A stretch of DNA of 32,000 nt from Candidatus Saccharimonadota bacterium (GTDB lineage Bacteria > Patescibacteriota > Gracilibacteria > BD1-5 > UBA2023): the NCBI GenBank assembly GCA_963706795.1, contig OY970170.1:810001-842000 (forward strand), given 5' to 3'. Positions 3,001 through 32,000 of the stretch are shown here, piece after piece. Position 1 is the stretch's first letter. Every line of letters starts with the position of its first letter. A program made the position numbers and the translations under genes. The notes under the pieces are model-generated. The model searched no databases. It was not told where the DNA came from and saw only the letters and a program-made list of their open reading frames with translations.

Positions 3001-3316
3001 AGGCGTTGAATGAGCGAATGGACTCTGTGCTTCGCAGTGTGGTTCTGGATATAAATTTGCGAGAGTTTCTGAGCTTGCAAACTTCAATTCATCGACAGAT
3101 TCGAGTACGGCTTCATTGTTTTATTGGGTGGATGGTGGTGCGATACAGACAAGTGGACCAAGTTCCATAGGTACCTGTTCACAATGGACGAGTTCACTTA
3201 CCGCACTCTATGGATATACTGTCAATTATACGAGCTCAACAAACAATAGGGTAGTCGGTTGAAACACGTCATGTAACAATCAAAAACCACTCCTCTGTGT
3301 CCGAGGCGTCCGTTAA
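2..3316 (+). CDS. Giant RCC1-repeat (beta-propeller) surface/secreted protein, 5'-partial, with a tail-fibre-like N-terminal region and a Cys-containing DUF1554/endostatin-like C-terminal domain
   Basis: Frame 2 is open from base 2 to TAA 3314-3316 once the eight in-frame TGAs (680, 1067, 1370, 1823, 2831, 2999, 3011, 3260) are read as sense. This joins track ORFs 80-682, 794-1069, 1172-1372, 1448-1825 and 1931-2833. There are about 15 copies of the RCC1 signature CAxLxDGxxKCWGxNxxGQLG. The N-terminus (SGTVNYIPKFNSTG..., DAANKGYVD) resembles tail-fibre/adhesin stalk motifs. The C-terminus (YNGNL-G-GVE-G-ANGLC ... CNNQKPLLCV) resembles the DUF1554/endostatin pattern. Confidence 0.85.
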
Positions 3317-3331
3317 TCATTTGCGTTCTTC

Positions 3332-3355
3332 AAGCCTCAGAATATTCTGAGGCTT
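3332..3355 (+). terminator. Rho-independent terminator-like hairpin after the RCC1 gene
   Basis: Perfect 10-bp stem AAGCCTCAGA / TCTGAGGCTT with a 4-nt loop ATAT, 16 nt after the stop codon, followed by a T-containing tail. Confidence 0.6.
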
Positions 3356-3381
3356 GATTGCTCTTTCATCCTCATTTTCAC

Positions 3382-4446
3382 ATGAAACACATCACACAAC
3401 ACCTCGATAAAAAATACATTCCGTGGATTGCATGAGCGCTTTTTGTACTCGCTATTATTGGGCTATATATGGTAGGTGGGCCTCGTGATACAGGAGATAC
3501 AATGACTACAGGTGTGACTGAACAAAATATCCAAAAACCTTCGCCATATCCGACGATTATGACATTGGTATCAAATGAATATCGTAATGATGAGTTCTTT
3601 GTGAGCTGTGAAACTGAGCGTGTAAATGCATGTATTAAGGCGCATGTAACAGAGACATTTGTCGTGACAGGTCCGTTTGTCGACCAGATGAATCTGCTTC
3701 TCCAAAAAAATCTCCAAAATGAGCAACTCGATAATTGTGTGAGTGATAGTGTAAGTGCCTGCTCGGATATGGCTATCAAAAATAAGATGCAAAAGACTCC
3801 GTCTGAGGATGGTTGTCGGTCATATATAGATCCTGCAATTCGCAAAAATTGTTATGATGATCTCTATCCAAAACTCGCACTTCAAAATGACGATATTCGT
3901 CTCTGTGATAAGCTTACTGATATATTCCATGTAAACGGCTGTCAGGATGCATATAACACCCATAAGGCTGTAAAAACCAAGGATATCTCATGGTGTATGC
4001 GTCTTTCGGTGGATTATGCACAAGAGAATTGTAAGAGAAGTTTTGCTCTTGGTGTTGCTCTTGATAGTGGGGATGTCACCTCATGCACGAAGTACTCAGA
4101 TCCACCCGTTGTTCCAGAATGTGTAAAGAATTTTATTACACAGAAGGTCTTTACCTTAGATGCGAGCAACTGTAAAAAGATTGATGATTACGCTTCATAT
4201 TTCGCAAATAAAACTGATCTTGAGTCTCTCTATATCGACTGTGCGGCACAGGCAACTTCGACACGTCTCATGGAACTCGTACGTGACGGTATGAAAAATA
4301 CTGCAAAGATCGATGAATTCCGCGCGATTTGTAATGATCTCACCAATACAAAGGCCAAGACAATCTGTCTACGAAGCCTCGATGATGCTATCGCTGTAGC
4401 ACAAAAAAATACAAATCCTGCACCCGCAACTCCCAAAACTCCGTAA
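3382..4446 (+). CDS. Membrane-anchored Cys-rich hypothetical protein
   Basis: ATG 3382 is in frame with track ORF 3469-4446 through one TGA (3433-3435). The N-terminus MKHITQHLDKKYIPWIA-G-ALFVLAIIGLYMV forms a TM anchor. Cys pairs recur about 20 residues apart (NCYDD...LCDKL, GCQDA...WCMRL, NCKRS...SCTKY, ECVKN...NCKKI). The tail is Pro/Thr-rich (NPAPATPKTP). Confidence 0.7.
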
Positions 4447-12891: not shown

Positions 12892-13211
12892 ATACCGCTC
12901 GCGTGCTCAAGAATGTTGCACTTCGTACACAAAAAAAGACTGATGCGCTCTATTGGATTACGCTCGTCAATCTCATTTTGGGCTTTCTGCTTTTTGTGAG
13001 TTTTGTGACCTTTTTAGTGGCACTCAATATTGCATTTATGCCGGTTGTTTTTGGTACGTATGCAGCATTCGGATGACTGCTATTTGTGATCGTCGATATT
13101 GCGGTTGCAACGGGTATATTTGTGCTGGAACATGCTAATATGGTCTTTCCACTGGTCACTCTGGTGGCACTGGTGCAGCTTGCGTTTTTATCAACTCGAC
13201 GCGAAAGTTAG
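12849..13211 (+). CDS. Small multi-TM membrane protein, possible anti-sigma partner
   Basis: ATG 12849 sits in an ATGA overlap with the sigma gene. Track ORF 12849-13076 extends through TGA 13074-13076 to TAG 13209-13211. There are three or four hydrophobic helices. The anti-sigma role is inferred from position only. Confidence 0.55.
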
Positions 13212-15277
13212 CTCATATCCCGCATACTGAGTCCGATCTTGCCAGTAACTTTATCGATGCTCACGATTCGGACTTTGACCTTTTCGCCGACTTGTACGAA
13301 ATCCATTGGATTGGATACAAATCTATCTGCGATCTGTGAAACATGCACGAGTCCGTCACTCTTGAGGCCAATATCCACAAATGCTCCAAAAGCGACCACA
13401 TTGCGAATAGTTCCGGTGACGATATCTCATTCTTTGAGTTCCTCTGCGGAGCGTTTTTTATCGACTGCGGTATGGCTTGAGTGCTTGCGAGGATCTTCGC
13501 CGATAGCCGCGTAGGATTCACGAATAAATTCAATTGTTGACACCTGAGTATCAGGGTAGAGCTCTTGCAGAGTTAGGAGATGATCCTTAAAATTTTCTGG
13601 GGTTATTTTTTGATCGATGACGTATCTCGCAAGTGCGTATTGCTCTGGATGGATATTGGTATTGTCGAAGGGTTCAGAGCTCTCAGGAATTCGTAAAAAT
13701 CCGATTGATTGTTCGTAGGCCTTTTCGGAGAGGACCTTTTGAAGCTGTTTTCTGGATTTGTATGGTCGGTGCGCATAGACCTTTTTGGCAGTTCGTTTAT
13801 CAAATCCTGAGATATGATTTAGCACATAGACCGATGCGATATTCACATTTACGCCGACTTGATTGACCGTGTCTTCAACGGTAAATCCGAGACGTTCCTC
13901 GAGCTTTTTTTCGGCGATGTCGTGCTGGTACATACCAACTCCGATACTGCCAACTGGGATTTTAACGAGCTCGGAGAGTGGGTCGATATAGCGTCGTGCA
14001 ATCGAGATCGTGCCACGATCCGTCACATCGAGATCAGGGAATTCCTCCTGAGCAACTGGAGAAGCGCTGTAGACAGAGGCTCCAGATTCGTTGACTAAAA
14101 ACATAGGCGTGTCGATCACTTTTCGCACGAGTTCAACGGTTTCCTCGGAGCCAGTTCCGTTACCAATGGCGATGACTCATGGTTGGTATTTGGCATGGAG
14201 CGTCTTAAGAATTTCGAGCGCTTTTGCTTCTTCGTGAATAAAAATCTTACTAAATTCGAGAGGATTTCCGAGCTCATCGAGGATCACGATCTTACAGCCT
14301 GTTCTGTAGCCTGGATCGATCCCGAGGATTTTTTTACCATATTCGGGCTTGGTCATCAGGAGATTGCTGAGATTAGCCTGAAATGTTCGTATGGATTCGT
14401 CCTCGGCTTTTTCGGTGAGACCGTTGCGGAGCTCGGTTTCTACTGATTTAAAGAGCGCAGTATATCCTTTACTTACTGCTTCTTCGAGCTCTGCAATGAG
14501 TGATCCATGCGAAAAATGATGTTTGATAAGATCATATGACGCATCATCTTTCTCGATTTTAATATTTAAAATCTCAAGATTTTCTCCGCGATTGAGGGCG
14601 AGAGTTTGGTAAGGTTTGAGGCGAGAAACAATCGCCGAAAAATCAGCATAGATGGCAAATTTACGTACTTCTTCTCGGGTTTTATCATTGAGCTTTTCGA
14701 GCATTTTTTCGCTCTTCATTTTGGAGGCAATCATGCCGCGACCAAAGAGATAGGTGCGTTCAGTATCTCGCAAAATCGCGTTACCACTAATCTCTGCTGC
14801 AATGATTTCAATGGCTCATTCGATGATTTCCTCGCGAGGATAGAGATCGGTGAGATTTTTTGGGATTTCAAAAGCCCGATTTTTTTTGATCTCATCAGCC
14901 ACAATCTGGAATCCCTTTTCGATCGCGAGCATTGCTTTGGTTTTCTTTTTGAGTCGATAGGGCGCGTAGATGTCTTCGACTTCTTTTAGAGTTTTGGCAA
15001 GCTCAATATTGCGTTCGAGCTCGGGCGTAAGACTACCTTGCTCAGAGATGCCGGTGAGTGCAGTGACTTTGGCCTTATAGAGATTTTCTTCGCGCTTGCG
15101 GACATCGATGATGTCGCGGATTTGGTTTTCGTCGAGATCGCCGGTTCTCTCTTTTCGGTATCGGGCAATAAATGGCACGGTCGCTCATTCGGCCACGAGT
15201 TCGAGGACAGTTTGGATTTGGCGCGGTCGTATTTGGAGCTCTTTTTCGATGATGGCTTCGTAGTTTGGTTCTTGCAT
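13208..15277 (-). CDS. tex: Tex-like transcription accessory protein (YqgF/HhH/S1 domains)
   Basis: Minus-strand ATG at 15277. Track ORFs 14816-15178, 14177-14773, 13427-14128 and 13208-13399 share one frame and are joined by TGAs at 15185, 14816, 14177 and 13427. Motifs are VAE-G-ATVPFIARYRKERTGDLDE (Tex N-terminal signature), VIAIGNGTGSEE (YqgF-like), and a C-terminal S1 domain G-DIVTGTIRNVVAFGAFVDIGLKSDGLVHVSQ. Confidence 0.92.
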
Positions 15278-15439: not shown

Positions 15440-16009
15440 ATGATGCAGGACCGAGACATTGCACGATTGCAGAATGGAGATCTTGACGCATTTGGTGATC
15501 TCTATGAGCGATACGCAGACAAAATATATAGTTTTCTCTTCTACAAAACGTTTGATAAAGAAGTCGCTGAAGACCTCACGGCAGATACCTTTTTAAAGGC
15601 ATTCAAGAACCGTCAATCCTTCCATGGAAACACGGCCGCCGAATTTAGTTCTTGGCTCTATACGATCGCATACAATAATTCCGTTGATCATTTTAGAACC
15701 CATAAGCCCACCGATGAGATTGATGAGTCGGCAGAAGATCTTGGTTTTACCGAAGATACTGCAACTCAGATCGATGCGAAGTCGAAACTGGATGAGATTC
15801 TCTCATTCCTCGACACACTCGAAAAAGATCAAAAAGATATCATCATCATGCGACTTTGGGATGATCTTTCCTACCAGGAAATAGCGGAAATTACAGGGAA
15901 AACTCCCGATAACTGTCGCAAAATCGTATCACGAGTCCTTGCACAGATCCAGTCGAACATTACCTATATGTTTTTGTTCTGCATGGTTACCTATTACATC
16001 CAAAAATAA
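15440..16009 (+). CDS. ECF-type sigma-70 family RNA polymerase sigma factor (second copy)
   Basis: ATG 15440 lies within track ORF 15410-16009. Region 2 motif AEDLTADTFLKAFKNRQSF...FSSWLYTIAYNNSVDHFR and region 4 motif LEKDQKDIIIMRLWDDLSYQEIAEITGKTPDNCRKIVSRVL are present. No in-frame TGA. Confidence 0.85.
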   Translation: MMQDRDIARLQNGDLDAFGDLYERYADKIYSFLFYKTFDKEVAEDLTADTFLKAFKNRQSFHGNTAAEFSSWLYTIAYNNSVDHFRTHKPTDEIDESAEDLGFTEDTATQIDAKSKLDEILSFLDTLEKDQKDIIIMRLWDDLSYQEIAEITGKTPDNCRKIVSRVLAQIQSNITYMFLFCMVTYYIQK

Positions 16010-16013
16010 TCCT

Positions 16014-17618
16014 ATGAAAAAAAATCTCAAGCAGTTCCTCGAGGAACTCTACCAACTCGATCCAAGTCTTCAGGCGAAAGAAGAGCAGCTTCTTAAGATC
16101 CTTGATGAGATGCTCACAAATCGTCCAAATGCTCATTTTGATGAAGCGTTCAAGGCCGAACTTCATCGCAAGATTCGTGCCGAAATTTCCCTCGAAAAAG
16201 GACATATTCGTACCACTCATTGGAAAAATACACTCATCGGATTTTTTGCCGGAGCAGGAGGAGTTGCATTCGCAGCATTTGCGGTCTTCCAATTTGTAAA
16301 TCCACCTGCAGTTATTAATACTTCAACTGTTTCACCTCAGGCGATTTCGACCACTGCGCTTGCAGAAGTCGACTTTGGTTTTAAGGCTGAACAAAAACCA
16401 AATCAGGCATTCGGAGCTATCCGTTTTTCTGATCAGCCAACCTCAAAAGATGCTAAGGGACTCGAAGCAGGGAAATCTTCTGGCGGCGGAATGCGATATA
16501 CGGCAGTTGCCCCAACGGCAGCGCCTGCAGCAACGTCTCGTCCAAGTGGAGCTCCAGAAGCTACTTCGGTAACTCCAGCCACTGAGCCTGCAACACTCAA
16601 GATGTCGAGTACAGATAGCCGCATCGCAATGCCTCCATATGAGATGAAGACGTACAAATATATCTATTCAGGTTCTGGTCTCGTGATCAAGGATTCGGAA
16701 ATGAGTGTCTATCAGAAGCAAAAAAATACACTGACTTCTGCCGAAGCTCAGTCACTTCTCTCAAACTTTAAGGTTTCGAGTATTGACCTCAGTAAGTTTT
16801 CTGACCTCCTTGTAAATAGCATTGATCTCGCTGAAAACAAGCAATTCGGACATACAATCAATATGAATTTTGGAGAAGGGACTATGTTCATCTCTAAGAA
16901 CTGGACAAAGTGGCCACAGATCAATTGTCAGGATGATGCATGTTACAAAGCTAATCAGACAAAGCTCGCAGACGTTCCATCAGATGATGCATCTCTCGCT
17001 ATCGCAGCAAAATTCCTCAAGGATTACAAGCTCGATGTAAGTGCCTACGGCAAGCCATTCGTCAATAATGATTGGAAGAAACAATACGAAGCCGCAACTG
17101 ACAAGAGTACTGCTTACGTTCCAGATGCTGTAACGGTTATGTATCCACTCGTTATTGATGGTAAAACTGTTTACGAAGAATATGGTCAGGCAAAGGGAAT
17201 GACGCTCACTATCGACATTAAATCAGGAATTGTTTCTGATGTCAGTGGTATCGAAAAACTCAATTTTGCTTCATCGAAGTATTCAGTTGAGACGGACTTC
17301 AAAAAGATTCTCGAGGTTGCATCAAAGGGAGGACGAAATGGATTTAGCTTCCCATACCCAATTGCTTCTACAGATGACACAACAAAGGTAACAACTATCG
17401 ATGTAAAGCTTGGTGAACCAACAATGTCATTCACACACATCTACGAATACAAGGATGGAGAAAGTAACGAATACATCGTACCAGCACTTATCTTCCCAGT
17501 TACTCAGACTCCAAAGGAAGGGGAATATTTCTCAGACAAGATTATTGTTCCGATCGTAAAGGACTTCTTTGAGAGTAAAAATCCTCCGATTATGTACAAA
17601 GAAGCAATCGCTCAATAA
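16014..17618 (+). CDS. Single-pass membrane protein with a large extracytoplasmic domain, possible anti-sigma factor
   Basis: ATG 16014 (MKKNLKQFLEELYQLDPSL...) lies 5 nt after the sigma stop, within track ORF 15939-17618. It has a cytoplasmic helical N-terminus, the TM segment LIGFFAGAGGVAFAAFAVFQFV, an Ala/Pro/Thr/Ser-rich linker and a ~330-aa ectodomain. No in-frame TGA. The role is inferred from position and topology. Confidence 0.6.
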   Translation: MKKNLKQFLEELYQLDPSLQAKEEQLLKILDEMLTNRPNAHFDEAFKAELHRKIRAEISLEKGHIRTTHWKNTLIGFFAGAGGVAFAAFAVFQFVNPPAVINTSTVSPQAISTTALAEVDFGFKAEQKPNQAFGAIRFSDQPTSKDAKGLEAGKSSGGGMRYTAVAPTAAPAATSRPSGAPEATSVTPATEPATLKMSSTDSRIAMPPYEMKTYKYIYSGSGLVIKDSEMSVYQKQKNTLTSAEAQSLLSNFKVSSIDLSKFSDLLVNSIDLAENKQFGHTINMNFGEGTMFISKNWTKWPQINCQDDACYKANQTKLADVPSDDASLAIAAKFLKDYKLDVSAYGKPFVNNDWKKQYEAATDKSTAYVPDAVTVMYPLVIDGKTVYEEYGQAKGMTLTIDIKSGIVSDVSGIEKLNFASSKYSVETDFKKILEVASKGGRNGFSFPYPIASTDDTTKVTTIDVKLGEPTMSFTHIYEYKDGESNEYIVPALIFPVTQTPKEGEYFSDKIIVPIVKDFFESKNPPIMYKEAIAQ

Positions 17619-17641
17619 TTTAATTTCCGTAATTCCCAAAT

Positions 17642-18508
17642 ATGAAAAAATCGATAGTTCTCGCGTTCGCACTCCTTGCGAGCGCGCTCCTCTCTCACAC
17701 TTCGTTTGCAGCTGATGCACCAAAGGTCTGTACGCTCGAATACGCTCCTGTGTGTGGCGTAGATGGCAAAACCTATGGTAACCAATGTGGTGCCGATGCA
17801 GCAAGCGTAAAGGTCGACTACAAAGGTGAATGCAAGGCTCCAACTAAAATGTGTACTCGTGAATATATTCCCGTATGTGGCATCGACGGCAAAACCTACG
17901 GCAATAGCTGTACTGCAGAAGCTGCAAACACCAAAGTAGACTACAAAGGTGAATGTAAAGCAGTCACTCTTCCAGCTGGATTTAAGAACGGAAGCCCATT
18001 CGTAACTCGTTGGCAGCGTAATATCATCCAATTTTATGCGATCAATCACTTCTCTTCGATCACTACAAACGGTGATATTACTGGTGCAAAGATCCATATA
18101 GCTAAAGCATTCTGGGAGTATCCAACTGCGAGCTCGCCTCAGTCGCTCGTCATCGCCTATATCGCCAATAAGCAGTCATATGAAGAATCCTTCATGGCTT
18201 CACTCAGTGGTAAAAAGATCTCTATCTTGCCAGTAGTCTCCAAGGCGACACCATTCACTCTTAAAAAGGGTGAGAAGGCCTACATCGCAAGTAAACAATT
18301 AACGGTCGAACTCACGGATCTTGCAGACTCTCGCTGTCCCGCGAACGTCCAGTGTGTCTGGGCAGGGGAAGCTACTCTCCAGATCAAGTTCACCCGAGGT
18401 ACTGAAATTCTCGAAGGAAAAAATCTCCTCAAGGCATTCGGTCTCGAACTCGAAGTAAAAAAGAGTGATTACAAAACCGAAGCTACGTTCTCTATCAAGA
18501 GCGAATAA
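17642..18508 (+). CDS. Secreted protein with two tandem Kazal-type protease-inhibitor-like domains and an uncharacterised C-terminal domain
   Basis: Signal peptide MKKSIVLAFALLASALLSHTSFA. The two repeats are CTLEYAPVCGVDGKTYGNQCGADAASVKVDYKGEC and CTREYIPVCGIDGKTYGNSCTAEAANTKVDYKGEC, which carry the Kazal core (Y/x)xPVCGxDGKTYxNxC....G.C. The C-terminal ~190 aa include DSRCPANVQCVWAGEATL. Confidence 0.8.
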   Translation: MKKSIVLAFALLASALLSHTSFAADAPKVCTLEYAPVCGVDGKTYGNQCGADAASVKVDYKGECKAPTKMCTREYIPVCGIDGKTYGNSCTAEAANTKVDYKGECKAVTLPAGFKNGSPFVTRWQRNIIQFYAINHFSSITTNGDITGAKIHIAKAFWEYPTASSPQSLVIAYIANKQSYEESFMASLSGKKISILPVVSKATPFTLKKGEKAYIASKQLTVELTDLADSRCPANVQCVWAGEATLQIKFTRGTEILEGKNLLKAFGLELEVKKSDYKTEATFSIKSE

Positions 18509-20446: not shown

Positions 20447-20475
20447 AAATACCCCGCTCGAGCGGGGTATTTTTA
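20447..20475. terminator. Bidirectional palindromic terminator hairpin
   Basis: AAAATACCCCGCTCGAGCGGGGTATTTTTA is a perfect palindrome centred on CTCGAG and flanked by A/T runs. It lies between the HxlR stop and the stop (20473-20475) of the convergent 623-aa gene. Confidence 0.75.
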
Positions 20476-22344
20476 TGCAGTAATTTCATCAGCAGTTTTA
20501 GCGAGTGTATTTCCGTGTTTTTCGTAGAGTGCGTGGTAGTTTTCGACAAACGCGCGATTTGTCTCGTCTTTTGGGAGGAAATATTTCCCATGCTTCACCA
20601 CATGTTCTCCGAGGAAAACCGAAGCATCTTCTTTTGCGAGGTATCGATCAACGAGGTCTTCATAGCGCTCAATATAGAGATCTCATAGTTTCTTAAAGGT
20701 CTCTTCGTTGTAATTGAGTACGATCTGGCCTTGTTCATTAAAGCTGATCATTCCAGAATCACGCAAGAGTTCAAGATGGATGAGTCATTCGACGTAGTAG
20801 GGCACAGCTGCGTCGACCTTCATCCAGTCAATTGTTCGGATAATGCGACTCACATGAATCACGATCAGTTCGCGTTGTATCTTTGGATCTGGATTTAAGA
20901 AAAATGCAACGAATCCCCCAGCAGTTGCTTTCCATTCTTCTACATTTTGGAAATTACCACTTTTGTTCATAGTGATTTCCGTGTCGTTATCGAGCCAGAG
21001 AGTGTGACCAAACTCATGTCCGTGAGTCATGACATCATTGATTTCGTAGAACGCAGTCGGATCCTCTGCATGGAGAATTGCTTCTCGCTCTTGCAGGAGG
21101 GAAGCCTCTGTGACTAATTGCTTTGCGAGCGTGAGCCGTCCAGCCTTATACATCTCATGCACATGTTTCAAGAATGAAAATATCTTGATCCCATGAGACT
21201 TCTTTACAACCGTATCATTTGGTACCACCTGTGCAGCAGGAAGTCCTGTCATATCTGCTCCATAGTACGTAGCTGGTGCAGTGACATAGAGATAAGATCG
21301 AGCAAGATTTTCGATCGAAGTAATGCTCACCGGATGATCCTTCGTGAGGCCTTTTTTTGTAGCGATATTCTCAAACATAGAGACTATGTTTGCTTTTACA
21401 TGTGATGAGAAGAGCTGCTTGCTCTCGAGACGCATACTCCATTGGAGTGCTACAGCATTGCGATATATATCTTCGTATGCTTCAAGCGGATGAGACGGCT
21501 GAAAAGGCCCAGTAATTGCCATCCACTTACGATCAACTTCTGCCCATCGCTCGACGAGTTTATCGGTATCTGTTTCCGTAAAGGCATTCTGAATGGCTGT
21601 GAAGTATTCGATATACGCCACCTTTTGGTCGTAGATATCATCCTCTAAGACGAGAAGTTTGCTTATGCAGTCAGCAGTTGTTCGCTGAATTGCTCAAACT
21701 TCCTGAGGGAAAGCCTCAGAATATGCTTTTTTCTCATAGCCGCCTTCAGTTTTTACAAGTGCCGAATACGAGCGATCTGCTTGCTCGCCTCCGTGCCCCT
21801 TATCAAAGAGATTATTTGCTGTGAGGTGATCAATAACTGCTCACATATCACTCTTAAAAAGTTTATCGAGTTCAGCATTTACCCCGAGGACAATGTGGTT
21901 ATTCCATTTTTTATGAAACTCATTCATCACGAGGCCAATATTGTGTACTCCTTTAAAGAGCTCAAGATAGTAGGGCGTGAGGAGATTTTCAGATTCGATC
22001 TTGGCAATAAGCTCGGCGTGCAAATTGCTGTGGTGCTCGGCTGTAAAATTAAATGCCTTCTCAATAATCGCATTTTTAGTTTCTGTAGCTACGTCCTTAT
22101 GCTCATTAAAATGATTCTGCAGAGGATCATCCCGCAAACTCGTGAGACGTATGTAGGCAATATATCGTGTCTTGTCATTTTTCTCTAGACCAACTGCATC
22201 TAAAAAGACATTGAGGAAATCCTGCTCTGGCCCAGCTTTGTCGATGCCAACATTGAGCGCATGGAGCTGTTTTTCGCGTTCATCGATATGTTTTTGAATC
22301 TTGCCGATACTTCCTTCCATCTCGGCTGCAGTTAGTGGGCCCAT
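20473..22344 (-). CDS. Hypothetical 623-aa protein with an HEXXH zinc-metallopeptidase-like motif
   Basis: Minus-strand ATG at 22344. Track ORFs 21841-22344 and 20785-21621 share a frame and are joined with flanking segments by TGAs at 21841, 21694, 20785 and 20683, ending at TAA 20473-20475. The motif is VMTHGHEFGHTLWLD, with Glu-Glu (NVEEWKAT) about 22 residues after the second His. Family assignment (M3-like?) is uncertain. Confidence 0.6.
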
Positions 22345-22559: not shown

Positions 22560-25346
22560 ATGCGAATTTCTTCCATTGCATCCATCCTCCTATCATTCCT
22601 CCTTCCATTTTCTACATTTGCTGTCGGCATTCAGGGGTCTTCGACCGCCTCAGGTGACTGGGGAAGCGGATTTTGCCAAAAAATCTCACTCGCCAATACC
22701 GAAAGCACTTCTCAAAGTTGGTCTGAGATTCGTTTTACGCTCAAAAATGCCAAGATTACAAACTCTTGGAATGGAGTATTTACATCGGCCAATGATGTCT
22801 ATACCATCAAACCCGTCGCCTGGAATAATCCCATCGCTGCAGGTCAGTCGATCGATATTGGATACTGTGGAGAAGGTTCCGGCCGTCCTATAGATATCGA
22901 TGTAGTTGGTGGTTCGTCTTCTACAAATCCTACAACTCCTCCAGTTATTCGTCCTGCACCAGTACATCTCGTCAAGGACGCACTTACTCTCGATGCTACC
23001 GTCAATGACTGGCAAACAGGGTACTGCCGTACAATCACACTCAAAAATACTGGTACAGCTGCACTCTCAAATTGGAAATTTGCATTCGACAGTACTGCCA
23101 CCATGAATCTCTGGTCAGGGAAAGTTACTAAAGCAGGTAATACTGTTACTGTGACTCCCGAAGCTTGGAATGGAAGTATTACCCCAAATGGAGTTGTTGA
23201 GCTCGGATTTTGTGCCGATGGTACGACATCCGACTCTAATTGGAATCTCCTCGGAAGTGACTCAGGTCCTATTATCCCAACTCCCACTCCCACAAATGGA
23301 AGCTGTGGTGCTGACAATGGGAAAGCACTGAGTAATACTCCTGTAAATCTCTGTAGCGCAGGCTCGGCGACTAATGTTTCTGGCAATGGTCCATGGGCAT
23401 GGTCATGTCTCGGACAGAATGGAGGCTCTAATGCTTCGTGTTCTGCGACAAAATCAGTGACTCCACCAAATCCAGTCAATGGATCATGTGGATCAGACAA
23501 CGGCAAGACGCTCGACACACCACCAACTGCACTCTGTATTGCAGGTACAGCATCTAATGTATCAGGAAACGGACCATGGTCATGGTCATGTAATGGTCAG
23601 AATGGTGGATCAAGTGCAACATGTGCCGCAAATAAGTCTCAGGTAACACCTCCAAATAACAGCGGAGCACTCATCTACACGATCGATGCTAACAAAAACC
23701 GCTCAGCTATTAGTCCATATATCTACGGACGCAATTTTGGAGATGGAAATACTGAAAACTTCGATGCGATGCGTCTCGGAGGAAATCGTCTCACAGGTTA
23801 CAACTGGGAAAACAATGCCTCAAATGCCGGTTCTGACTGGAATCATTCAAGTGACAGCTATCTCGGTGACAGCAATGTTCCAGGGAAGACCGTTACTGAT
23901 TTCCATGACAAAAATCGGAGTCTCGGCGTGGCATACTCACTCGTGACTATGCCAATGGCTGGCTATGTAGCTCGCGACAAGAACGGAACAGTCAACCAAA
24001 ACGAAACCGCTCCATCAAATCGATGGGATGATGTAGTGGTTGCAAAAAATAGTGCATTTTCGCTCACGCCAAATCTCACAGACGGACATGTCTACAGCGA
24101 TGAATTCATCAATTTCCTCGTAAATAAATACGGCAAAGCCAACACCGCAACCGGTATCAAAGGCTACGCACTCGACAATGAACCAGCTCTTTGGACATCC
24201 ACTCATTCACGACTTCATCCAAATAAGGTCACAGTCTCCGAGATGATTACCCGCAGTACTGCACTCTCCAAGGCAATCAAAGCCGTCGATGCTACTGCCG
24301 AAATCTTTGGTGCGGTTACCTATGGATTTGGAGAACACTACAATCTCCAAGATGCTCCGGATTGGTCAAATTACTCATCGACATACGCAACGTATATCGA
24401 TGCCTTCCTTGCAAATCTCAAATCTGCAAGCGATACTCAGGGGAAGCGTCTTCTCGACGTTCTTGATATCCACTGGTATCCAGAAGCACAGGGAACAACT
24501 CTTGCTGGTAACAAAGTCCGCATCCTCGAAAATAACTCGGATCCTGATGTGGCTCGCGCTCGAATGCAGGCACCACGATCACTCTGGGATCCAACATATC
24601 GCGAAGACAGCTGGATCGGACAGTGGTATGCAAGTACTGCGTTCCCACTCATTCCAAAGCTCAAGGCTTCGATCGATCGCTACTACCCAGGAACGAAGCT
24701 CGCCATCACCGAATTTGATTACGGAGGAAATAACCATATCTCAGGTGGTATTGCCACAGCTGATGTCCTCGGTATCTATGGGAAGTACGGAGTATATTTC
24801 TCAAGCTATTGGGGAAATGTAGATGGATATGTTTCAAGCGCCTACAAACTCTACCGCAATGTTGATGGAGCAAATACAACATTCGGAGATACTGAAATCG
24901 ACGCGACAAATCCTGATATCGAAAATACCTCTATCTACGCCTCTACTGAGGGCGCTGGTGGTAAGGCTCACGTCATTCTCATCAACAAGAAAAATACACC
25001 AGTAAACATCCATCTCAATCTTGCGAATATCACGGCAAACAAGGCTGATGTCTACGGATTTGATGCTACAAATACAGCTATTACTAAGCGAGCCTCGGTA
25101 AATGTGGGTGCAAACGGACTGGATTATACTCTTCCTGCGCTCACTGCGGTTCACCTTATTTTTGCTGGTACTTCTACAACTGTTGCACCGACAACGATTG
25201 CGCCAAAGGTTACTACGACTACCGTCCCAGTGACACAGACTACCAAGACAGTTACTCCCGCGGCAGTGATTACTCCCGCAGTAACCACTGTGAAAAAACC
25301 GGTTAAAAAGGTTATTATCAAAAAACCAAAGGTAGTGAAGCCATAA
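22560..25346 (+). CDS. Secreted glycoside hydrolase family 44 (endoglucanase/xyloglucanase-type) with two N-terminal CBM2-like modules, two Cys-rich ~61-aa repeats and a Thr/Pro/Lys-rich tail
   Basis: Intact 928-aa track ORF with signal peptide MRISSIASILLSFLLPFSTFA. CBM2-like pattern: GDWGSGFCQKISLAN...W...F.L....ITNSWNG...WNNPIAAGQSIDIGYCG, and a second copy NDWQTGYCRTITLKN.... GH44-like catalytic strings: MRLGGNRLTGYNWENNASNAGSDWNHSSD, YALDNEPALWTSTHSRLHP, LDVLDIHWYPEA, LAITEFDYGG. No in-frame TGA. Confidence 0.85.
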   Translation: MRISSIASILLSFLLPFSTFAVGIQGSSTASGDWGSGFCQKISLANTESTSQSWSEIRFTLKNAKITNSWNGVFTSANDVYTIKPVAWNNPIAAGQSIDIGYCGEGSGRPIDIDVVGGSSSTNPTTPPVIRPAPVHLVKDALTLDATVNDWQTGYCRTITLKNTGTAALSNWKFAFDSTATMNLWSGKVTKAGNTVTVTPEAWNGSITPNGVVELGFCADGTTSDSNWNLLGSDSGPIIPTPTPTNGSCGADNGKALSNTPVNLCSAGSATNVSGNGPWAWSCLGQNGGSNASCSATKSVTPPNPVNGSCGSDNGKTLDTPPTALCIAGTASNVSGNGPWSWSCNGQNGGSSATCAANKSQVTPPNNSGALIYTIDANKNRSAISPYIYGRNFGDGNTENFDAMRLGGNRLTGYNWENNASNAGSDWNHSSDSYLGDSNVPGKTVTDFHDKNRSLGVAYSLVTMPMAGYVARDKNGTVNQNETAPSNRWDDVVVAKNSAFSLTPNLTDGHVYSDEFINFLVNKYGKANTATGIKGYALDNEPALWTSTHSRLHPNKVTVSEMITRSTALSKAIKAVDATAEIFGAVTYGFGEHYNLQDAPDWSNYSSTYATYIDAFLANLKSASDTQGKRLLDVLDIHWYPEAQGTTLAGNKVRILENNSDPDVARARMQAPRSLWDPTYREDSWIGQWYASTAFPLIPKLKASIDRYYPGTKLAITEFDYGGNNHISGGIATADVLGIYGKYGVYFSSYWGNVDGYVSSAYKLYRNVDGANTTFGDTEIDATNPDIENTSIYASTEGAGGKAHVILINKKNTPVNIHLNLANITANKADVYGFDATNTAITKRASVNVGANGLDYTLPALTAVHLIFAGTSTTVAPTTIAPKVTTTTVPVTQTTKTVTPAAVITPAVTTVKKPVKKVIIKKPKVVKP

Positions 25347-27941: not shown

Positions 27942-28610
27942 TTATTTTTTCATGTCCAGTTCGATAATTTCTGGAAGGCACATATCGAACGCTTCTACGC
28001 ATTCTGGGCAGAACATTTTGCCACTATTGAGATGCATAAAATCCATGGTCGCATCAATATCGACGGATGGTTTATATATTCTCTTTTCTCGCAGGGCATC
28101 AAATACATCCGCAATACTTACAATCCGAGAGGCTTGCGAGATTTCCAAACCTTTTAGTCACTGTGGATAACCAGTGCCATCATATTTTTCGTGATGCGTA
28201 CGAGCGACATCAGCTGCGTATTTTATGATTGGCCATTTAGCAATGAGTGTATCACTTTCGAGAATACGGGCTCATTTTTCGGAATGCTCTTCCATGATTT
28301 TTTGCTCATCAGGATCAAGTCTTCCATTTTTGCGGAGTATCGCATCGGGAATGGCTATTTTGCCGATATCATGAAGCGCAGCAGCAATTCAAAGTGCGGC
28401 ATTTATTTCGCTACACAGTCCGAGCACCTTTCAGATTTTCATGGCGATAACACTCACGCGTGTCGCATGAGATCCAGTATCGCTATCACGATACTCCATA
28501 GTGACCATGAGTGTGTGCAATACGGCCTCGCGTAGTTTTTTAGAAGATTGACTCTCTTGCTCGAGCTTCCGAGTAAGTAGGGATCAGCGTAATTCATTCA
28601 GAGCCAGCAT
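27942..28610 (-). CDS. Stand-alone HD-GYP domain phosphodiesterase
   Basis: Minus-strand ATG at 28610. Track ORF 27942-28148 extends upstream through five TGAs (28158, 28272, 28389, 28431, 28584). Motifs are YRDSDTGSHATRVS, AAALHDIGKIAIPDAILRKNGRL, HHEKYDGTGYPQ-(TGA 28158-28160)-LKG (the HHExxDGxGYPxGL signature) and IADVFDALREKRIYK. Confidence 0.88.
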
Positions 28611-30650: not shown

Positions 30651-31163
30651 TTAAGCCAAGCTTTTAATCCACTTAGTCAGGCCTTCTTCGCTGAGCTCGA
30701 GTCTATTTAAAAAATCCTTGTCCATAATACTGAGTCCTATAACTTTGGAGTGTTTCTCTAAAAAAGAATCATGATCCTGGATAAGCTCGGGAAGTCTTTT
30801 GAGAGATTCGGTGTAGCCTTTTGCTTCATAGAGTTCTCTAAGAAGGGTCTCGCTCAGATCGAGACTGATTACAAATATGCGATAGTTGTGGGGCTCCAGC
30901 CATCATTGCATTTTAGCCCATTCACGATCGACACTGGCATCAAAAATAAAGGACTTTTTGGACTCAATAAGTTCGAGGCAGCGGGCATTTCGCCGAGAAA
31001 TATACTCATCCTCTCTGAATTCACGAAAATCTTCTATAATTTCGGATCGCAGAGCATCGTTATTAAAAATCGGAAGTCCGAATTTGTAGCTCAAATAGGT
31101 TGCAATGGGAGTCTTCGAACTTCCAATGCATCCGGCGAATGTTACGCAGATAGGAGTATTCAT
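30651..31163 (-). CDS. Small P-loop NTPase/kinase-like protein with a deviant Walker A
   Basis: Track ORF 30903-31163 extended through TGA 30903-30905 to TAA 30651-30653. The N-terminus MNTPICVTFAGCIGSSKTPIATYL resembles a Walker A loop, but reads GxxGxSKT rather than GxxxxGK(S/T). There is a later hydrophobic-strand-plus-Asp element (SFIFDAS). Confidence 0.45.
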
Positions 31164-31209: not shown

Positions 31210-32000
31210 CTACCTCACTTCGTATCCCAAATTGCCTCCTATTCTTTCGCGGATATCAAAATACATGGCATTGATTTCTTCATTGGTCAGGGTTCTCTCA
31301 ATGGAACGGAATACGATTTTGATACTGAGAGATTTTTTGTCGGATCAGAATTTTGCGTCGTCTTCGTAAATGTCGGTGATTTTTACTTCTTCGATGAGAT
31401 CATCGCCTATGTCGCGGATTACTCAGGTTATGGCAAAGAAATTGGATTCGGTATCGCGAGTAAGCTCGAATTCTCCGGACTTCTCTTCTTCTTTGGTGTC
31501 TTTTTGAAATTGCGATTTGGGGACAATCATAGAGATTTCTTTGTAGACAGGAGGGAATGAACTGACTTCTTTGTAGGGCTCAAAATTGCCCCATTGTTTG
31601 GTAATGCGTGCGTCTTCGCTCCAGAAAATACGGATGTCTGAGATCTCCTTCATTGCCATTGCGAGCCGCTCGAGTCCAAATCAAAACGCCCAGCCGTTAT
31701 ATTTTGCTGGATCGACGCTGAGCTTTTCGAGGACAGTTGGGTGGATGACGCCTGCTCCAGTGACTTCGAGCCATTTGCCGCGATAGAGAACTTCTACCTC
31801 GAGACTGTCGGTTGTATATGGGAACGAATCTTCATTAAATCGGTATTCGATATTCTCACCAAATAGCGCTTTGATCGTATTTGCAAGAACCTCTTTGAGG
31901 GTCGATCCATCAATGATTTCTTGGTTTTTTTCACAGATACGAAATCCATCAATCTGATGGAAACATTCATGATGACTCTTATCGAGCTCATCAACACGAT
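31210..32000 (-). CDS. pheS: Phenylalanyl-tRNA synthetase, catalytic alpha-type core fused to a C-terminal FDX-ACB-like anticodon-binding domain (N-terminus outside the window)
   Basis: The minus-strand frame is open from the window edge to TAG 31210-31212 with TGAs at 31681, 31423 and 31345. Motifs are HHECFHQIDGF (motif 2 region), FPYTTDSLEVEV...WLEVTGAGVIHPTVL, and GWAF-(TGA 31681-31683)-FGLERLAMAMKEISDIRIFWSEDARITKQW (motif 3). These are followed by SSFPPVYKEISMIVP ... F-G-SDKKSLSIKIVFRSIERTLTNEEI. Confidence 0.85.

What the first reader, a model, noticed from the sequence alone, without database searches (positions are those of the whole stretch)
31210..32000. Single-chain, mitochondrial-type PheRS architecture with no adjacent pheT
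After class II motif 3 (GWAFGFGLERLAMAM...DIRIFWSEDARITKQW), the ORF does not stop as bacterial PheS does. It continues for about 130 aa: SSFPPVYKEISMIVP ... GVIRDIGDDLIEEVKITDIYEDDAKFGSDKKSLSIKIVFRSIERTLTNEEI. That pattern (SxxPxxxxDIS..., then a ferredoxin-like K-S-x-x-(I/L)-x-(I/F/Y)-x-S-x-ERTL segment) is how I recall the FDX-ACB anticodon-binding domain. In canonical bacteria this domain sits at the C-terminus of PheT. In mitochondrial FARS2 it is fused directly to the catalytic core. The motif 3 to DIRLFW-xxDxRF-xxQ(F/W) stretch also resembles my recollection of FARS2. The gene downstream is a small P-loop protein, not pheT. A monomeric PheRS in a free bacterial lineage would bear on the origin of the mitochondrial enzyme and on genome streamlining in CPR.
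Basis: partly seen in the sequence, partly recalled or inferred. Interest (0 to 1): 0.7.

Follow-up and report, generated by a model that had tools for sequence, protein, structure and literature searches.

The report
Second, mitochondrial-type PheRS in Gracilibacteria
A Gracilibacterium that reads UGA as glycine encodes a one-chain phenylalanyl-tRNA synthetase built like the human mitochondrial enzyme, but related genomes also keep an ordinary PheS, so it is most likely an extra copy and not a slimmed-down replacement.

Summary
On the minus strand (31213-31998, stop TAG 31210-12) lies the C-terminal 262 aa of a 419-aa protein; I recovered the rest from an identical contig. It is open only under code 25 (3 in-frame TGA, one at the invariant Gly of motif 3). 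It has a PheS-type class II core (Pfam 196 bits) fused to an FDX-ACB anticodon-binding domain (63 bits). A confident model of a 76%-identical relative superposes on human mitochondrial PheRS over the whole chain (TM 0.72). No pheT is adjacent.

The same recoded lineages (Gracilibacteria, Absconditabacteria) also carry a canonical PheS that passes NCBI's pheS cut-off. In two independent assemblies it sits back to back with the single-chain gene. A Gracilibacteria protein annotated pheT is reported in a proteomics table. So this is most likely an additional FARS2-like paralogue, not genome streamlining.

No curated model claims the family (SrmL 219/300, pheS_mito 179/258, pheS 164/237). In an NJ tree it groups with other bacterial single-chain proteins and SrmL, sister to the eukaryotic clade.

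I could not check pheS or pheT in this genome itself, and I saw no pheT sequence in any recoded lineage.

The parts
31213..32000 (-). Coding sequence for the C-terminal 262 aa (residues 158-419) of a 419-aa FARS2-like single-chain PheRS homologue. The gene continues to the equivalent of window position 32469.
   Evidence: Code-25 translation. The full gene was recovered from L058, which is 100% identical over 11,554 bp.
31210..31212 (-). Stop codon TAG
31591..31998 (-). C-terminal part of the class IIc catalytic core (Pfam tRNA-synt_2d), including motif 2, the Phe-pocket strand FPYTTDS, GAGVIHP, motif 3 and the FARS2-type DIRIFWSEDARITKQW tail
   Evidence: Pfam 126 bits on the fragment and 196 bits on the full length. 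Alignment to PheS and FARS2.
31942..31998 (-). Class II motif 2 region, (Y)RVDELDKSHHECFHQIDGF. HHECFHQ is the family-specific signature.
31651..31695 (-). Class II motif 3, GWAFGFGLERLAMAM. The specificity Ala is retained, and the second Gly is encoded by TGA.
31213..31563 (-). FDX-ACB (ferredoxin-fold anticodon-binding, B8-type) domain. It carries a family-specific insertion of about 20-25 aa (31444-31518) that is absent from FARS2 and from the divergent recoded copy P0122.
   Evidence: Pfam 62.8-64.2 bits against a cut-off of 31.1. Alignment. Fold model of a 76%-identical homologue.
31681..31683 (-). In-frame TGA read as Gly (motif 3). Two more are at 31423-31425 and 31345-31347.
30651..31163 (-). 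Context only: the downstream 170-aa orphan with a Walker-A-like GCIGSSKT. It is not pheT and is not conserved next to the gene in other genomes.
   Evidence: No Pfam or PADLOC hit. Neighbourhood comparison.

Best explanation
The gene encodes a FARS2-like class IIc aminoacyl-tRNA synthetase. It has a PheS-type catalytic module with all three class II motifs, no PheS N-terminal coiled coil, and a hinge-linked C-terminal FDX-ACB anticodon-binding domain. It belongs to a tightly conserved family found in the UGA=Gly Patescibacteria (Gracilibacteria, Absconditabacteria/SR1). It exists alongside the lineage's canonical alpha-beta PheRS and does not replace it. Proposed mechanism, by analogy with human mitochondrial PheRS: (1) the core binds Phe and ATP and forms Phe-AMP; (2) the FDX-ACB domain swings from the closed position on the core to an open one and reads the tRNA-Phe anticodon; (3) Phe is transferred to A76. 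With no B3/B4 domain there is no cis-editing. Shown here: the architecture, the fold, conservation of the motifs and pocket, coexistence with a canonical PheS in related genomes, and distinctness from every curated family. Inferred: catalytic activity, Phe and tRNA-Phe specificity, the monomeric state, and that this genome also has pheS/pheT. Why two enzymes are kept is unknown.
For: Domains pass their cut-offs. The best PDB sequence hit is human mtPheRS across both domains, E 1.5e-31. The AF2 model of P0002 (76% identical) has pLDDT 91 and pTM 0.86. Its top Foldseek hit is 3cmq, TM 0.72/0.73 over the whole chain, closer to the closed form than to the tRNA-bound 3tup (TMq 0.52). The family has 120 or more 90%-identity clusters at 58% identity or above, each 400-458 aa with PF01409+PF03147. 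Mean column identity is 65%, with invariant motif 1 (LLRPHT), motif 2 (YRVD..D..HHECF.Q.D) and motif 3 residues. The pocket Ala of motif 3 is kept, and the FHQ(I/L)D variant is also seen in eukaryotic FARS2-type sequences. A canonical PheS is widespread in the same lineages and passes TIGR00468. It sits back to back with the single-chain gene in L019 and, independently, in L057. Alpha alone is inactive, so a beta partner is expected (PMC3275996). A 'pheT' row for a 43% GC Gracilibacteria bin appears in PMC11452946 supplement 2. In the NJ tree the recoded canonical PheS sits among bacterial PheS, far from the single-chain family.
Against: I saw no pheT sequence from any recoded lineage. pheT is not next to canonical pheS in four contexts, including a closed genome. 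A DNA pattern requiring TGA at the Gly of PheT's E-x-G-Q-P-[LM]-H-x-F-D motif found only 9 chance matches in JGI metagenomes. The 'pheT' in the literature is an automatic KEGG label with no sequence. Physical co-occurrence is shown for only one species-level lineage (25% GC), whereas the window organism has 43% GC, and its own pheS/pheT could not be examined. The pocket has Tyr where PheS and FARS2 have Phe (FPYT against FPFT). The best NCBIfam match is a family whose own curators call its function a mystery.
Confidence: 0.6

Rival explanations
1. One reading: it is the only PheRS of this organism, a monomeric enzyme that replaced the alpha-beta heterotetramer during CPR genome reduction, at least in the window's 43% GC lineage.
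For: The motifs are intact and the family is strongly conserved. The fold is FARS2-like. There is no pheT or pheS within the window or the 2.9 kb beyond it. No recoded pheT sequence was recovered by any search.
Against: A canonical PheS that passes the equivalog cut-off is widespread in the same clades and is physically linked to the single-chain gene in L019 and L057. A conserved alpha subunit implies a beta subunit (PMC3275996). A pheT-annotated protein is reported from a 43% GC Gracilibacteria bin. Only 32 kb of a ~1.27 Mb genome was visible.
Confidence: 0.12
2. It is not a translational synthetase. Instead it is a 'mystery ligase' like its nearest curated relative SrmL. It would use the PheS-type core and an RNA-binding domain for another job, for example supplying an aminoacyl-tRNA or aminoacyl-adenylate to a linked pathway.
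For: The top NCBIfam hit is SrmL (219 bits). The SrmL clade is the sister group within the bacterial assemblage, with 86% bootstrap. In sub-lineages the gene heads co-directional blocks of radical-SAM genes, or MurA-like/epimerase genes, or LD-carboxypeptidase/ATP-grasp genes. The pocket has an F-to-Y change.
Against: It scores well below the SrmL cut-off of 300. True SrmL (P0176, 402 bits) sits in a reverse-transcriptase/PLD operon that no recoded locus resembles. The downstream blocks differ between sub-lineages and are absent in the window. An anticodon-binding domain and a Phe-type pocket argue for tRNA-Phe charging. There are no PADLOC hits.
Confidence: 0.15
3. It is one subunit of a heteromeric enzyme and not a monomer. 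Its partner would be the canonical PheS, with this chain standing in for a missing PheT by supplying a class II core and the B8 domain. In one sub-lineage the partner would be the degenerate beta-like protein encoded immediately downstream (f3).
For: pheS and the single-chain gene are divergently adjacent in L019 and L057. No pheT sequence was seen in any recoded lineage. The f3 protein (634-653 aa) directly follows the gene in L013, L020, L026, L029 and L052. It gives collinear weak hits to the PheS core (27 bits, above the cut-off), to B5 (4 of 4 members, best E 3e-5) and to the PheT catalytic-like module (3 of 4), and it ends where B8 would start.
Against: f3 occurs only in that sub-lineage among the loci held and is absent from the window. 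hhalign probability to E. coli PheT is only 7.6%, and the f3 structure model failed at pLDDT 39. A structural stand-in for beta would not need the fully conserved catalytic motifs seen here. The predicted fold closes on itself as in monomeric FARS2.
Confidence: 0.1
4. It is an artefact: a pseudogene, a contaminant eukaryotic fragment, or a mis-assembly.
For: The ORF is interrupted under the standard code.
Against: The TGAs sit at conserved Gly positions, and the whole window needs code 25. The identical sequence occurs in an independent Logan assembly. There are hundreds of conserved relatives on recoded contigs.
Confidence: 0.01

Closest known systems
Mitochondrial phenylalanyl-tRNA synthetase (human FARS2; PDB 3cmq, 3tup; NCBIfam TIGR00469)
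   Same: One chain with a PheS-type catalytic module and a C-terminal FDX-ACB (B8-type) domain. No coiled-coil arm and no editing domain. It shares the GWAFGxGxERLAM and PDIRxFW..D.RF..QF signatures. The whole-chain fold match is TM 0.72. Together they form a 100%-bootstrap clade with all single-chain proteins.
   Different: It is bacterial and encoded with UGA=Gly. It scores 179 bits against the 258 cut-off. It has a conserved N-terminal extension of about 50 aa and an insertion of about 20-25 aa in the FDX-ACB domain. Its pocket reads FPYT where FARS2 has FPFT. It coexists with a canonical PheS instead of being the compartment's only PheRS. In the tree it falls in the bacterial sister group, not inside the eukaryotic clade.
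PheS-related mystery ligase SrmL (NCBIfam NF051887)
   Same: A bacterial protein with the same two-domain architecture. It is the best-scoring curated model (219 bits) and the sister clade in the tree (86% for the joint bacterial assemblage).
   Different: It is below the 300-bit cut-off. A true SrmL (P0176, 402 bits) is about 350-380 aa and heads an operon with two ~740-aa orphans, a reverse transcriptase and a PLD-family protein. No such context is seen here.
Canonical bacterial PheS (TIGR00468), including the lineage's own copy (e.g. P0384 of Ca. Absconditicoccus praedator)
   Same: A homologous class IIc catalytic core, about 35-40% identical to E. coli PheS over the core.
   Different: Canonical PheS has the PF02912 coiled-coil arm, lacks FDX-ACB, needs PheT, and in the recoded lineages carries a four-Cys insertion (CPICKGKGCxLCK). 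The window protein scores 164 bits against the 237 cut-off.
Bacterial PheT (TIGR00472), domain B8
   Same: The C-terminal 80-117 aa align to the last domain of PheT (47-63 bits on pheT_bact positions ~719-798).
   Different: It has none of B1-B7: no tRNA_bind, B3_4 or B5 domain, and no catalytic-like module.
Unnamed bacterial single-chain relatives (Oligoflexia MAG protein MBX7144632.1 = P0125; P0123; P0128)
   Same: They are the nearest non-recoded relatives (84% bootstrap with the recoded family). They have the same architecture and are solitary genes without an adjacent pheT.
   Different: They use the standard code, come from larger genomes, lack the FDX-ACB insertion, and are annotated only as hypothetical proteins.

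Membership tests
Mitochondrial-type single-chain PheRS (FARS2 / TIGR00469) | PheS-type class II catalytic core with motifs 1-3 | tested here: met
   PF01409 196.2 bits. The motifs align with PheS and FARS2.
Mitochondrial-type single-chain PheRS (FARS2 / TIGR00469) | FDX-ACB anticodon-binding domain fused to the C-terminus of the same chain | tested here: met
   PF03147 62.8 bits against a cut-off of 31.1, residues 303-419
Mitochondrial-type single-chain PheRS (FARS2 / TIGR00469) | No PheS N-terminal coiled-coil arm and no editing (B3/B4) domain | tested here: met
   No PF02912, PF03483 or PF03484 hit at E<=1
Mitochondrial-type single-chain PheRS (FARS2 / TIGR00469) | Whole-chain fold like 3cmq | tested here: met
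   Model of the 76%-identical homologue P0002: pLDDT 91, TM 0.72/0.73 to 3cmq, E 1.4e-30. The window protein itself was not modelled.
Mitochondrial-type single-chain PheRS (FARS2 / TIGR00469) | Curated equivalog score of at least 258.35 bits | tested here: not met
   178.7 bits for the full length, and 147-199 bits for eight relatives
Mitochondrial-type single-chain PheRS (FARS2 / TIGR00469) | Falls inside the eukaryotic/organellar clade | tested here: not met
   NJ tree: it sits in a bacterial assemblage (86%) that is sister to the eukaryote-containing clade (67%). This is an approximate method.
Mitochondrial-type single-chain PheRS (FARS2 / TIGR00469) | Active as a monomer in Phe-tRNA-Phe synthesis | not testable with these tools
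   This needs biochemistry.
Mitochondrial-type single-chain PheRS (FARS2 / TIGR00469) | Is the only PheRS of its compartment or cell | tested here: inconclusive
   Not met in relatives: a canonical PheS is co-located in L019 and L057 and is widespread in the lineage. The window's own genome could not be scanned.
SrmL, PheS-related mystery ligase (NF051887) | Curated equivalog score of at least 300 bits | tested here: not met
   219.1 bits. Relatives score 190-233 bits. A true member, P0176, scores 402 bits.
SrmL, PheS-related mystery ligase (NF051887) | Operon context seen for a true member (reverse transcriptase and PLD-family genes downstream). This rests on one locus only and is not a curated criterion. 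| tested here: not met
   L055 context compared with 34 recoded loci and the window
Canonical bacterial PheS alpha subunit (TIGR00468) | Curated equivalog score of at least 237.45 bits | tested here: not met
   163.5 bits. The lineage's canonical PheS scores 243-262 bits.
Canonical bacterial PheS alpha subunit (TIGR00468) | N-terminal Phe_tRNA-synt_N coiled coil (PF02912) | tested here: not met
   No hit
Bacterial PheT beta subunit (TIGR00472) | B3_4 editing domain, B5 domain and catalytic-like module | tested here: not met
   Only the terminal FDX-ACB region aligns (47 bits against a cut-off of 403)

The most novel reading that the evidence does not exclude
The UGA=Gly lineages have no conventional PheT at all. 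Their PheRS would be rebuilt from a canonical PheS plus this alpha-derived second chain, which brings the anticodon-binding B8 domain. In one sub-lineage a third, degenerate beta-like protein would join them. That would be a fourth architectural form of PheRS. It would also explain the back-to-back pheS/single-chain gene pair and my failure to find any recoded pheT.
Probability: 0.08. Interest if true: 0.85.

Novelty: new variant of a known kind. Interest (0 to 1): 0.5.

Why it matters
PheRS is taught as having three forms: bacterial (alpha-beta)2, archaeal/eukaryotic (alpha-beta)2 and the mitochondrial monomer. The monomer has been described as the only monomeric class II-core synthetase and as a late chimera of the bacterial alpha core and beta B8 domain (PMC3275996). 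Here the same chimera is a large, conserved family in free-living or episymbiotic bacteria. It has further bacterial relatives in Oligoflexia and in the SrmL family, and together these form the sister group of the organellar enzymes. That makes a bacterial origin of the FARS2 architecture testable with proper phylogenetics, with horizontal transfer from eukaryotes as the alternative. It also raises a concrete question: why would genome-reduced bacteria pay for two PheRS-type systems? On the practical side, these proteins are annotated as 'hypothetical' or 'PheS alpha chain'. Pipelines that count pheS as a single-copy marker in Gracilibacteria and Absconditabacteria could be confused by the paralogue. 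The genome-streamlining story that prompted the finding is not supported.

Tried and rejected
- **Literature.** No paper in the library links PheRS with Gracilibacteria, SR1 or CPR, or describes a bacterial monomeric PheRS. The supplements of PMC8406219 are not held, and those of PMC8080830 have no hits.
- **Finding pheT by synteny.** It is not adjacent to canonical pheS in L019, L038 (closed A. praedator genome), L039 or L049-51.
- **Finding pheT by a TGA-at-Gly DNA pattern in JGI metagenomes.** This gave 9 matches, none PheT-like, close to my own rough estimate of about 7 chance matches. It is a weak negative, because a divergent motif would be missed.
- **tblastn of E. coli PheT on 0.83 Mb of fetched loci.** It found only FDX-ACB hits and the weak f3 hits.
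- **Contigs of 84,505 and 84,508 bp.** I suspected they were one replicon carrying both genes, but they are different organisms (26% against 32% GC).
- **Third large protein search, with the f3 profile.** It was swamped by low-complexity words and returned 3 hits, so it says nothing about f3's distribution.
- **AF2 model of f3.** It is unusable (pLDDT 39), so no fold search was run on it.
- **The ~348-aa 'pheS_mito' metagenomic proteins.** I first took them for bacterial. Several named ones are eukaryotic (Vitrella, a fern, a locust), so I make no claim about the unnamed ones.
- **P0128.** Its apparent lack of FDX-ACB looks like a frameshifted C-terminus.
- **Identifying the 1.27 Mb parent record.** Both exact look-ups failed.
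- **A defence-system role.** There are no PADLOC hits for the protein, its neighbours, SrmL or f3.
- **A change of amino-acid specificity inferred from FHQID.** Rejected, because the same Asp occurs in eukaryotic FARS2-type sequences.
Full report
**What is in the sequence.**
The feature is on the minus strand. Reading 31998 down to 31213 gives 262 codons followed by TAG at 31210-31212. The ORF runs off the window end, so the N-terminus is missing. Under the standard bacterial code it is cut by three TGAs, at 31681-83, 31423-25 and 31345-47. The first lies at the invariant glycine of class II motif 3 (GWAF-TGA-FGLERL). That assumption is justified. Across the window, ORFs of at least 150 aa sum to 20,365 residues when TGA is sense, against 7,687 under code 11. 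The closest relatives come from Gracilibacteria MAGs and from the 2012 'uncultured bacterium (gcode 4)' records.

**Recovering the whole gene.**
A window protein with no in-frame TGA (the GH44/CBM2 protein, 22560-25346) was found by exact look-up on a 23-kb Logan contig, L058. L058 is 100% identical to the window over 11,554 bp and extends 2.9 kb past it. The complete gene is 419 aa with an ATG start, equivalent to window 31210..32469. Upstream are three small orphans and a DKNYY protein, with no pheS or pheT. A cluster look-up shows a 262-aa version of this protein on a 1,267,896-bp NCBI/ENA contig. The window is therefore probably the last 32 kb of a nearly complete genome that was linearised inside this gene. 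I could not fetch that record.

**Domain and fold tests.**
- Pfam on the full protein gives tRNA-synt_2d at 196.2 bits (residues 49-293) and FDX-ACB at 62.8 bits (303-419; cut-off 31.1). The PheS N-terminal coiled coil, B3_4 and B5 give no hit.
- The best sequence match among solved structures is human mitochondrial PheRS, E 1.5e-31, spanning both domains. Bacterial PheS chains match only the core.
- An AlphaFold model of the 76%-identical relative P0002, built on a 25-sequence alignment, is confident (pLDDT 91.1, pTM 0.86).
- Its best structural match is 3cmq, at TM 0.72/0.73 over the whole chain. It is closer to that closed form than to the tRNA-bound open form 3tup (TMq 0.52). Bacterial alpha subunits cover only half of it.

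The observation, and the architectural half of the interpretation, are therefore confirmed.

**The family.**
The large protein database holds 2,319 hits at E<=1e-10. The best 120 are 58-82% identical. The full-length ones are 400-458 aa, and nearly all carry PF01409+PF03147. They are named 'hypothetical protein', 'FDX-ACB domain...' or 'phenylalanyl-tRNA synthetase alpha chain'. In an alignment of 25 members, mean column identity is 65%, and motif 1 (LLRPHT), motif 2 (YRVD..D..HHECF.Q.D) and motif 3 are invariant. A scan of species-representative genomes with the family motifs returned 31 loci. All are labelled Gracilibacteria, SR1/Absconditabacteria, uncultured bacterium or (doubtfully) Peribacteria. 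All are consistent with UGA recoding, including a 56% GC member that uses TGA sparsely. No curated NCBIfam model claims the protein:

| NCBIfam model | Score (bits) | Cut-off (bits) |
|---|---|---|
| SrmL, 'PheS-related mystery ligase' | 219 | 300 |
| pheS_mito | 179 | 258 |
| pheS | 164 | 237 |

These are, and eight relatives behave the same way.

**The key counter-evidence.**
I probed all fetched loci with E. coli PheS and PheT. One Gracilibacteria contig (L019, 25% GC) carries a second, much stronger PheS hit right beside the single-chain gene. It is a 341-aa protein with 17 in-frame TGAs, so it belongs to the same recoded organism. It is transcribed divergently from the 446-aa single-chain gene. 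An independent Logan assembly (L057) shows the same pair, with Pfam PF02912+PF01409 next to PF01409+PF03147.

Searching with this canonical PheS returned 120 relatives at 53-100% identity. Most are 338-343 aa, and nearly all carry PF02912+PF01409. The named ones are called 'phenylalanine--tRNA ligase subunit alpha' from Gracilibacteria, Absconditabacterales, Ca. Vampirococcus lugosii and the closed 1.13-Mb genome of Ca. Absconditicoccus praedator. They pass NCBI's pheS equivalog cut-off, at 243-262 bits against 237, and match bacterial alpha subunits end to end. Isolated alpha subunits are inactive (PMC3275996), so a conserved PheS implies a beta partner.

A metaproteogenomic study of Gracilibacteria lists a detected protein auto-annotated 'FARSB, pheT'. 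It comes from a bin named Bacteria2_43_8, the '43' apparently denoting 43% GC, the same GC as this window (PMC11452946 supplement 2). That is a label without a sequence. The single-chain protein would more likely be labelled as an alpha chain, as JGI does, so I take the row as supporting evidence and not proof.

**What I could not show.**
I never saw a pheT sequence from a recoded lineage.
- pheT is not next to canonical pheS in four contexts.
- It is never next to the single-chain gene in 34 loci.
- A DNA pattern demanding TGA at the conserved Gly of the PheT B3/B4 motif found only nine chance matches in JGI metagenomes.

I also could not scan the window's own genome. The conclusion that this is an extra paralogue therefore rests on phylogenetic bracketing and not on this genome.

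**Active site.**
In an alignment with E. coli PheS, the lineage's PheS, other single-chain proteins and human FARS2, the family has the FARS2-type signatures (GWAFGxGxERLAM; PDIRxFW..D.RF..QF; C-terminus ...LR). It keeps the motif 3 alanine that sizes the Phe pocket (this role is from my own knowledge of E. coli PheS Ala294). Its FHQID, in place of FHQxE, also occurs in eukaryotic FARS2-type sequences. The one family-specific pocket change is FPYT for FPFT. The FDX-ACB domain carries an insertion of about 20-25 aa that is absent from FARS2 and from the divergent recoded copy P0122. Nothing argues against phenylalanine and tRNA-Phe as substrates, but specificity remains inferred.

**Relatives outside the lineage.**
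An exhaustive profile search of 1.84 billion representatives found 6,707 hits. Single-chain core+FDX-ACB proteins are common among them. Many that pass the pheS_mito cut-off are eukaryotic where a name exists (Vitrella, a fern, a locust), so the unnamed ones cannot be assumed to be bacterial. The securely bacterial ones are:
- An Oligoflexia MAG protein (P0125), a solitary gene among metabolic genes.
- P0128, in a context with LytTR two-component, GH92 and AraC genes.
- True SrmL (P0176, 402 bits), which heads an operon with two ~740-aa orphans, a reverse transcriptase and a PLD-family protein.

A neighbour-joining tree of the catalytic core (196 columns, 100 bootstraps, archaeal/cytosolic alpha chains as outgroup) gives the following support:

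| Grouping | Bootstrap |
|---|---|
| All single-chain proteins | 100% |
| Bacterial assemblage (SrmL clade + P0125/P0128/P0123 + recoded family) | 86% |
| Recoded family + P0123/P0125/P0128 | 84% |
| Eukaryote-containing clade | 67% |

The lineage's canonical PheS sits far away, among bacterial PheS. This is a rough method. It shows the window protein is not a recent eukaryotic import nested among mitochondrial sequences, but it cannot settle the direction of any ancient transfer.

**A side discovery relevant to mechanism.**
In one sub-lineage (L013, L020, L026, L029, L052-54) the single-chain gene is followed directly by a 634-653-aa orphan, 'f3'. E. coli PheT without its FDX-ACB domain gives weak hits inside it. 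Pfam gives collinear weak matches:
- The PheS core at ~109-247 (27 bits, above the 19.8 cut-off).
- B5 at ~395-455 (4 of 4 members, best E 3e-5).
- The PheT catalytic-like module at the extreme C-terminus (3 of 4 members).

The protein ends where B8 would begin. A PDB profile search agrees. However, hhalign gives only 7.6% probability and the structure model failed. f3 is absent from the window and from the other held loci. It suggests that in some genomes the 'single chain' may work with a degenerate beta-like partner. That keeps a heteromer reading alive at low probability.

**Verdict.**
The architecture is real, and for bacteria it is undescribed in the literature I could search. The 'streamlined sole PheRS' reading is not supported. 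The most likely reading is a second, FARS2-like PheRS paralogue alongside a canonical enzyme, with an unknown division of labour. Confidence is limited by the unseen pheT and by having only 32 kb of the genome.

Noticed in passing
L019 8626-9651 (-) and 9890-11230 (+); L057 5669-6694 (-) and 6933-8273 (+): A canonical pheS and the single-chain PheS+FDX-ACB gene are divergently adjacent, about 240 bp apart, in one low-GC Gracilibacteria lineage. This is seen in two independent assemblies, so the two genes may be co-regulated from a shared intergenic region.
   Followed up: partly
L052 11399-13333; L020 10213-12174; L026 11324-13228; L029 13694-15616; L013 11264-13198: The 'f3' orphan, 634-653 aa, lies immediately downstream of the single-chain gene. 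It gives weak collinear hits to the PheS core, the B5 domain and the PheT catalytic-like module, and it ends where the FDX-ACB domain would start. It may be a degenerate beta-like subunit.
   Followed up: partly
L055 605-11741: True SrmL (P0176, 402 bits on NF051887) heads a co-directional operon with two ~740-aa orphans, a reverse transcriptase (RVT_1), a 564-aa orphan, a PLDc_2 protein and a flavoprotein. This looks like a defence island, but PADLOC 2.0 has no match.
   Followed up: partly
P0384, P0285, P0399 (alignment): The canonical PheS of the recoded lineages carries a four-Cys insertion (CPICKGKGCxLCK), a putative zinc ribbon, in the catalytic domain. Its motif 3 reads G(M/L)TR where E. 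coli has GMER.
   Followed up: no
L002, L014, L017, L019, L031, L057 (downstream of the single-chain gene): Three to four radical-SAM genes lie co-directionally downstream. One is a ~650-aa radical-SAM/SPASM-like fusion with a methyltransferase. Other sub-lineages instead have a MurA-like/epimerase block, or a dCTP-deaminase/LD-carboxypeptidase/ATP-grasp block.
   Followed up: partly
window 15440-18508 and 22560-25346: Four genes have no in-frame TGA in 1,939 codons: an ECF-type sigma factor, a 534-aa protein, a Kazal-domain protein and the 928-aa GH44+CBM2 glycoside hydrolase. The confidently assigned neighbouring genes have roughly one TGA per 60-170 codons. These four may be recent acquisitions from standard-code organisms.
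   Followed up: no
window 17642-18508 (+): A secreted 288-aa protein has two Kazal-type serine-protease-inhibitor domains (64 bits). This domain is uncommon in bacteria.
   Followed up: no
window 2-3451, both strands: Two very long antisense-overlapping ORFs (1,104 aa on + and 1,150 aa on -) are open under code 25. The minus-strand translation is Cys/Arg/Ser/Thr-rich and looks non-genuine, so the real gene is probably on the plus strand and repeat-rich.
   Followed up: no
window 20473-22344 (-), 13208-15277 (-), 27942-28610 (-): Ordinary neighbours: a DUF7897 protein (548 bits), a Tex-like transcription accessory protein and an HD-domain (HD_5) protein. No tRNA gene occurs anywhere in the window.
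   Followed up: yes
window end (32000): The 262-aa truncated product is on record from a 1,267,896-bp NCBI/ENA contig. The window therefore appears to be the end of a near-complete genome that was linearised inside this gene, and public annotation of that record will show a truncated protein.
   Followed up: partly
L001-L031 record titles: Many recoded contigs carrying this family are labelled 'uncultured Candidatus Peribacteria bacterium' in ENA TPA assemblies. One of them is the contig of the 2012 ACD 'gcode 4' protein P0008. The Peribacteria label looks like a taxonomy-mapping artefact.
   Followed up: no
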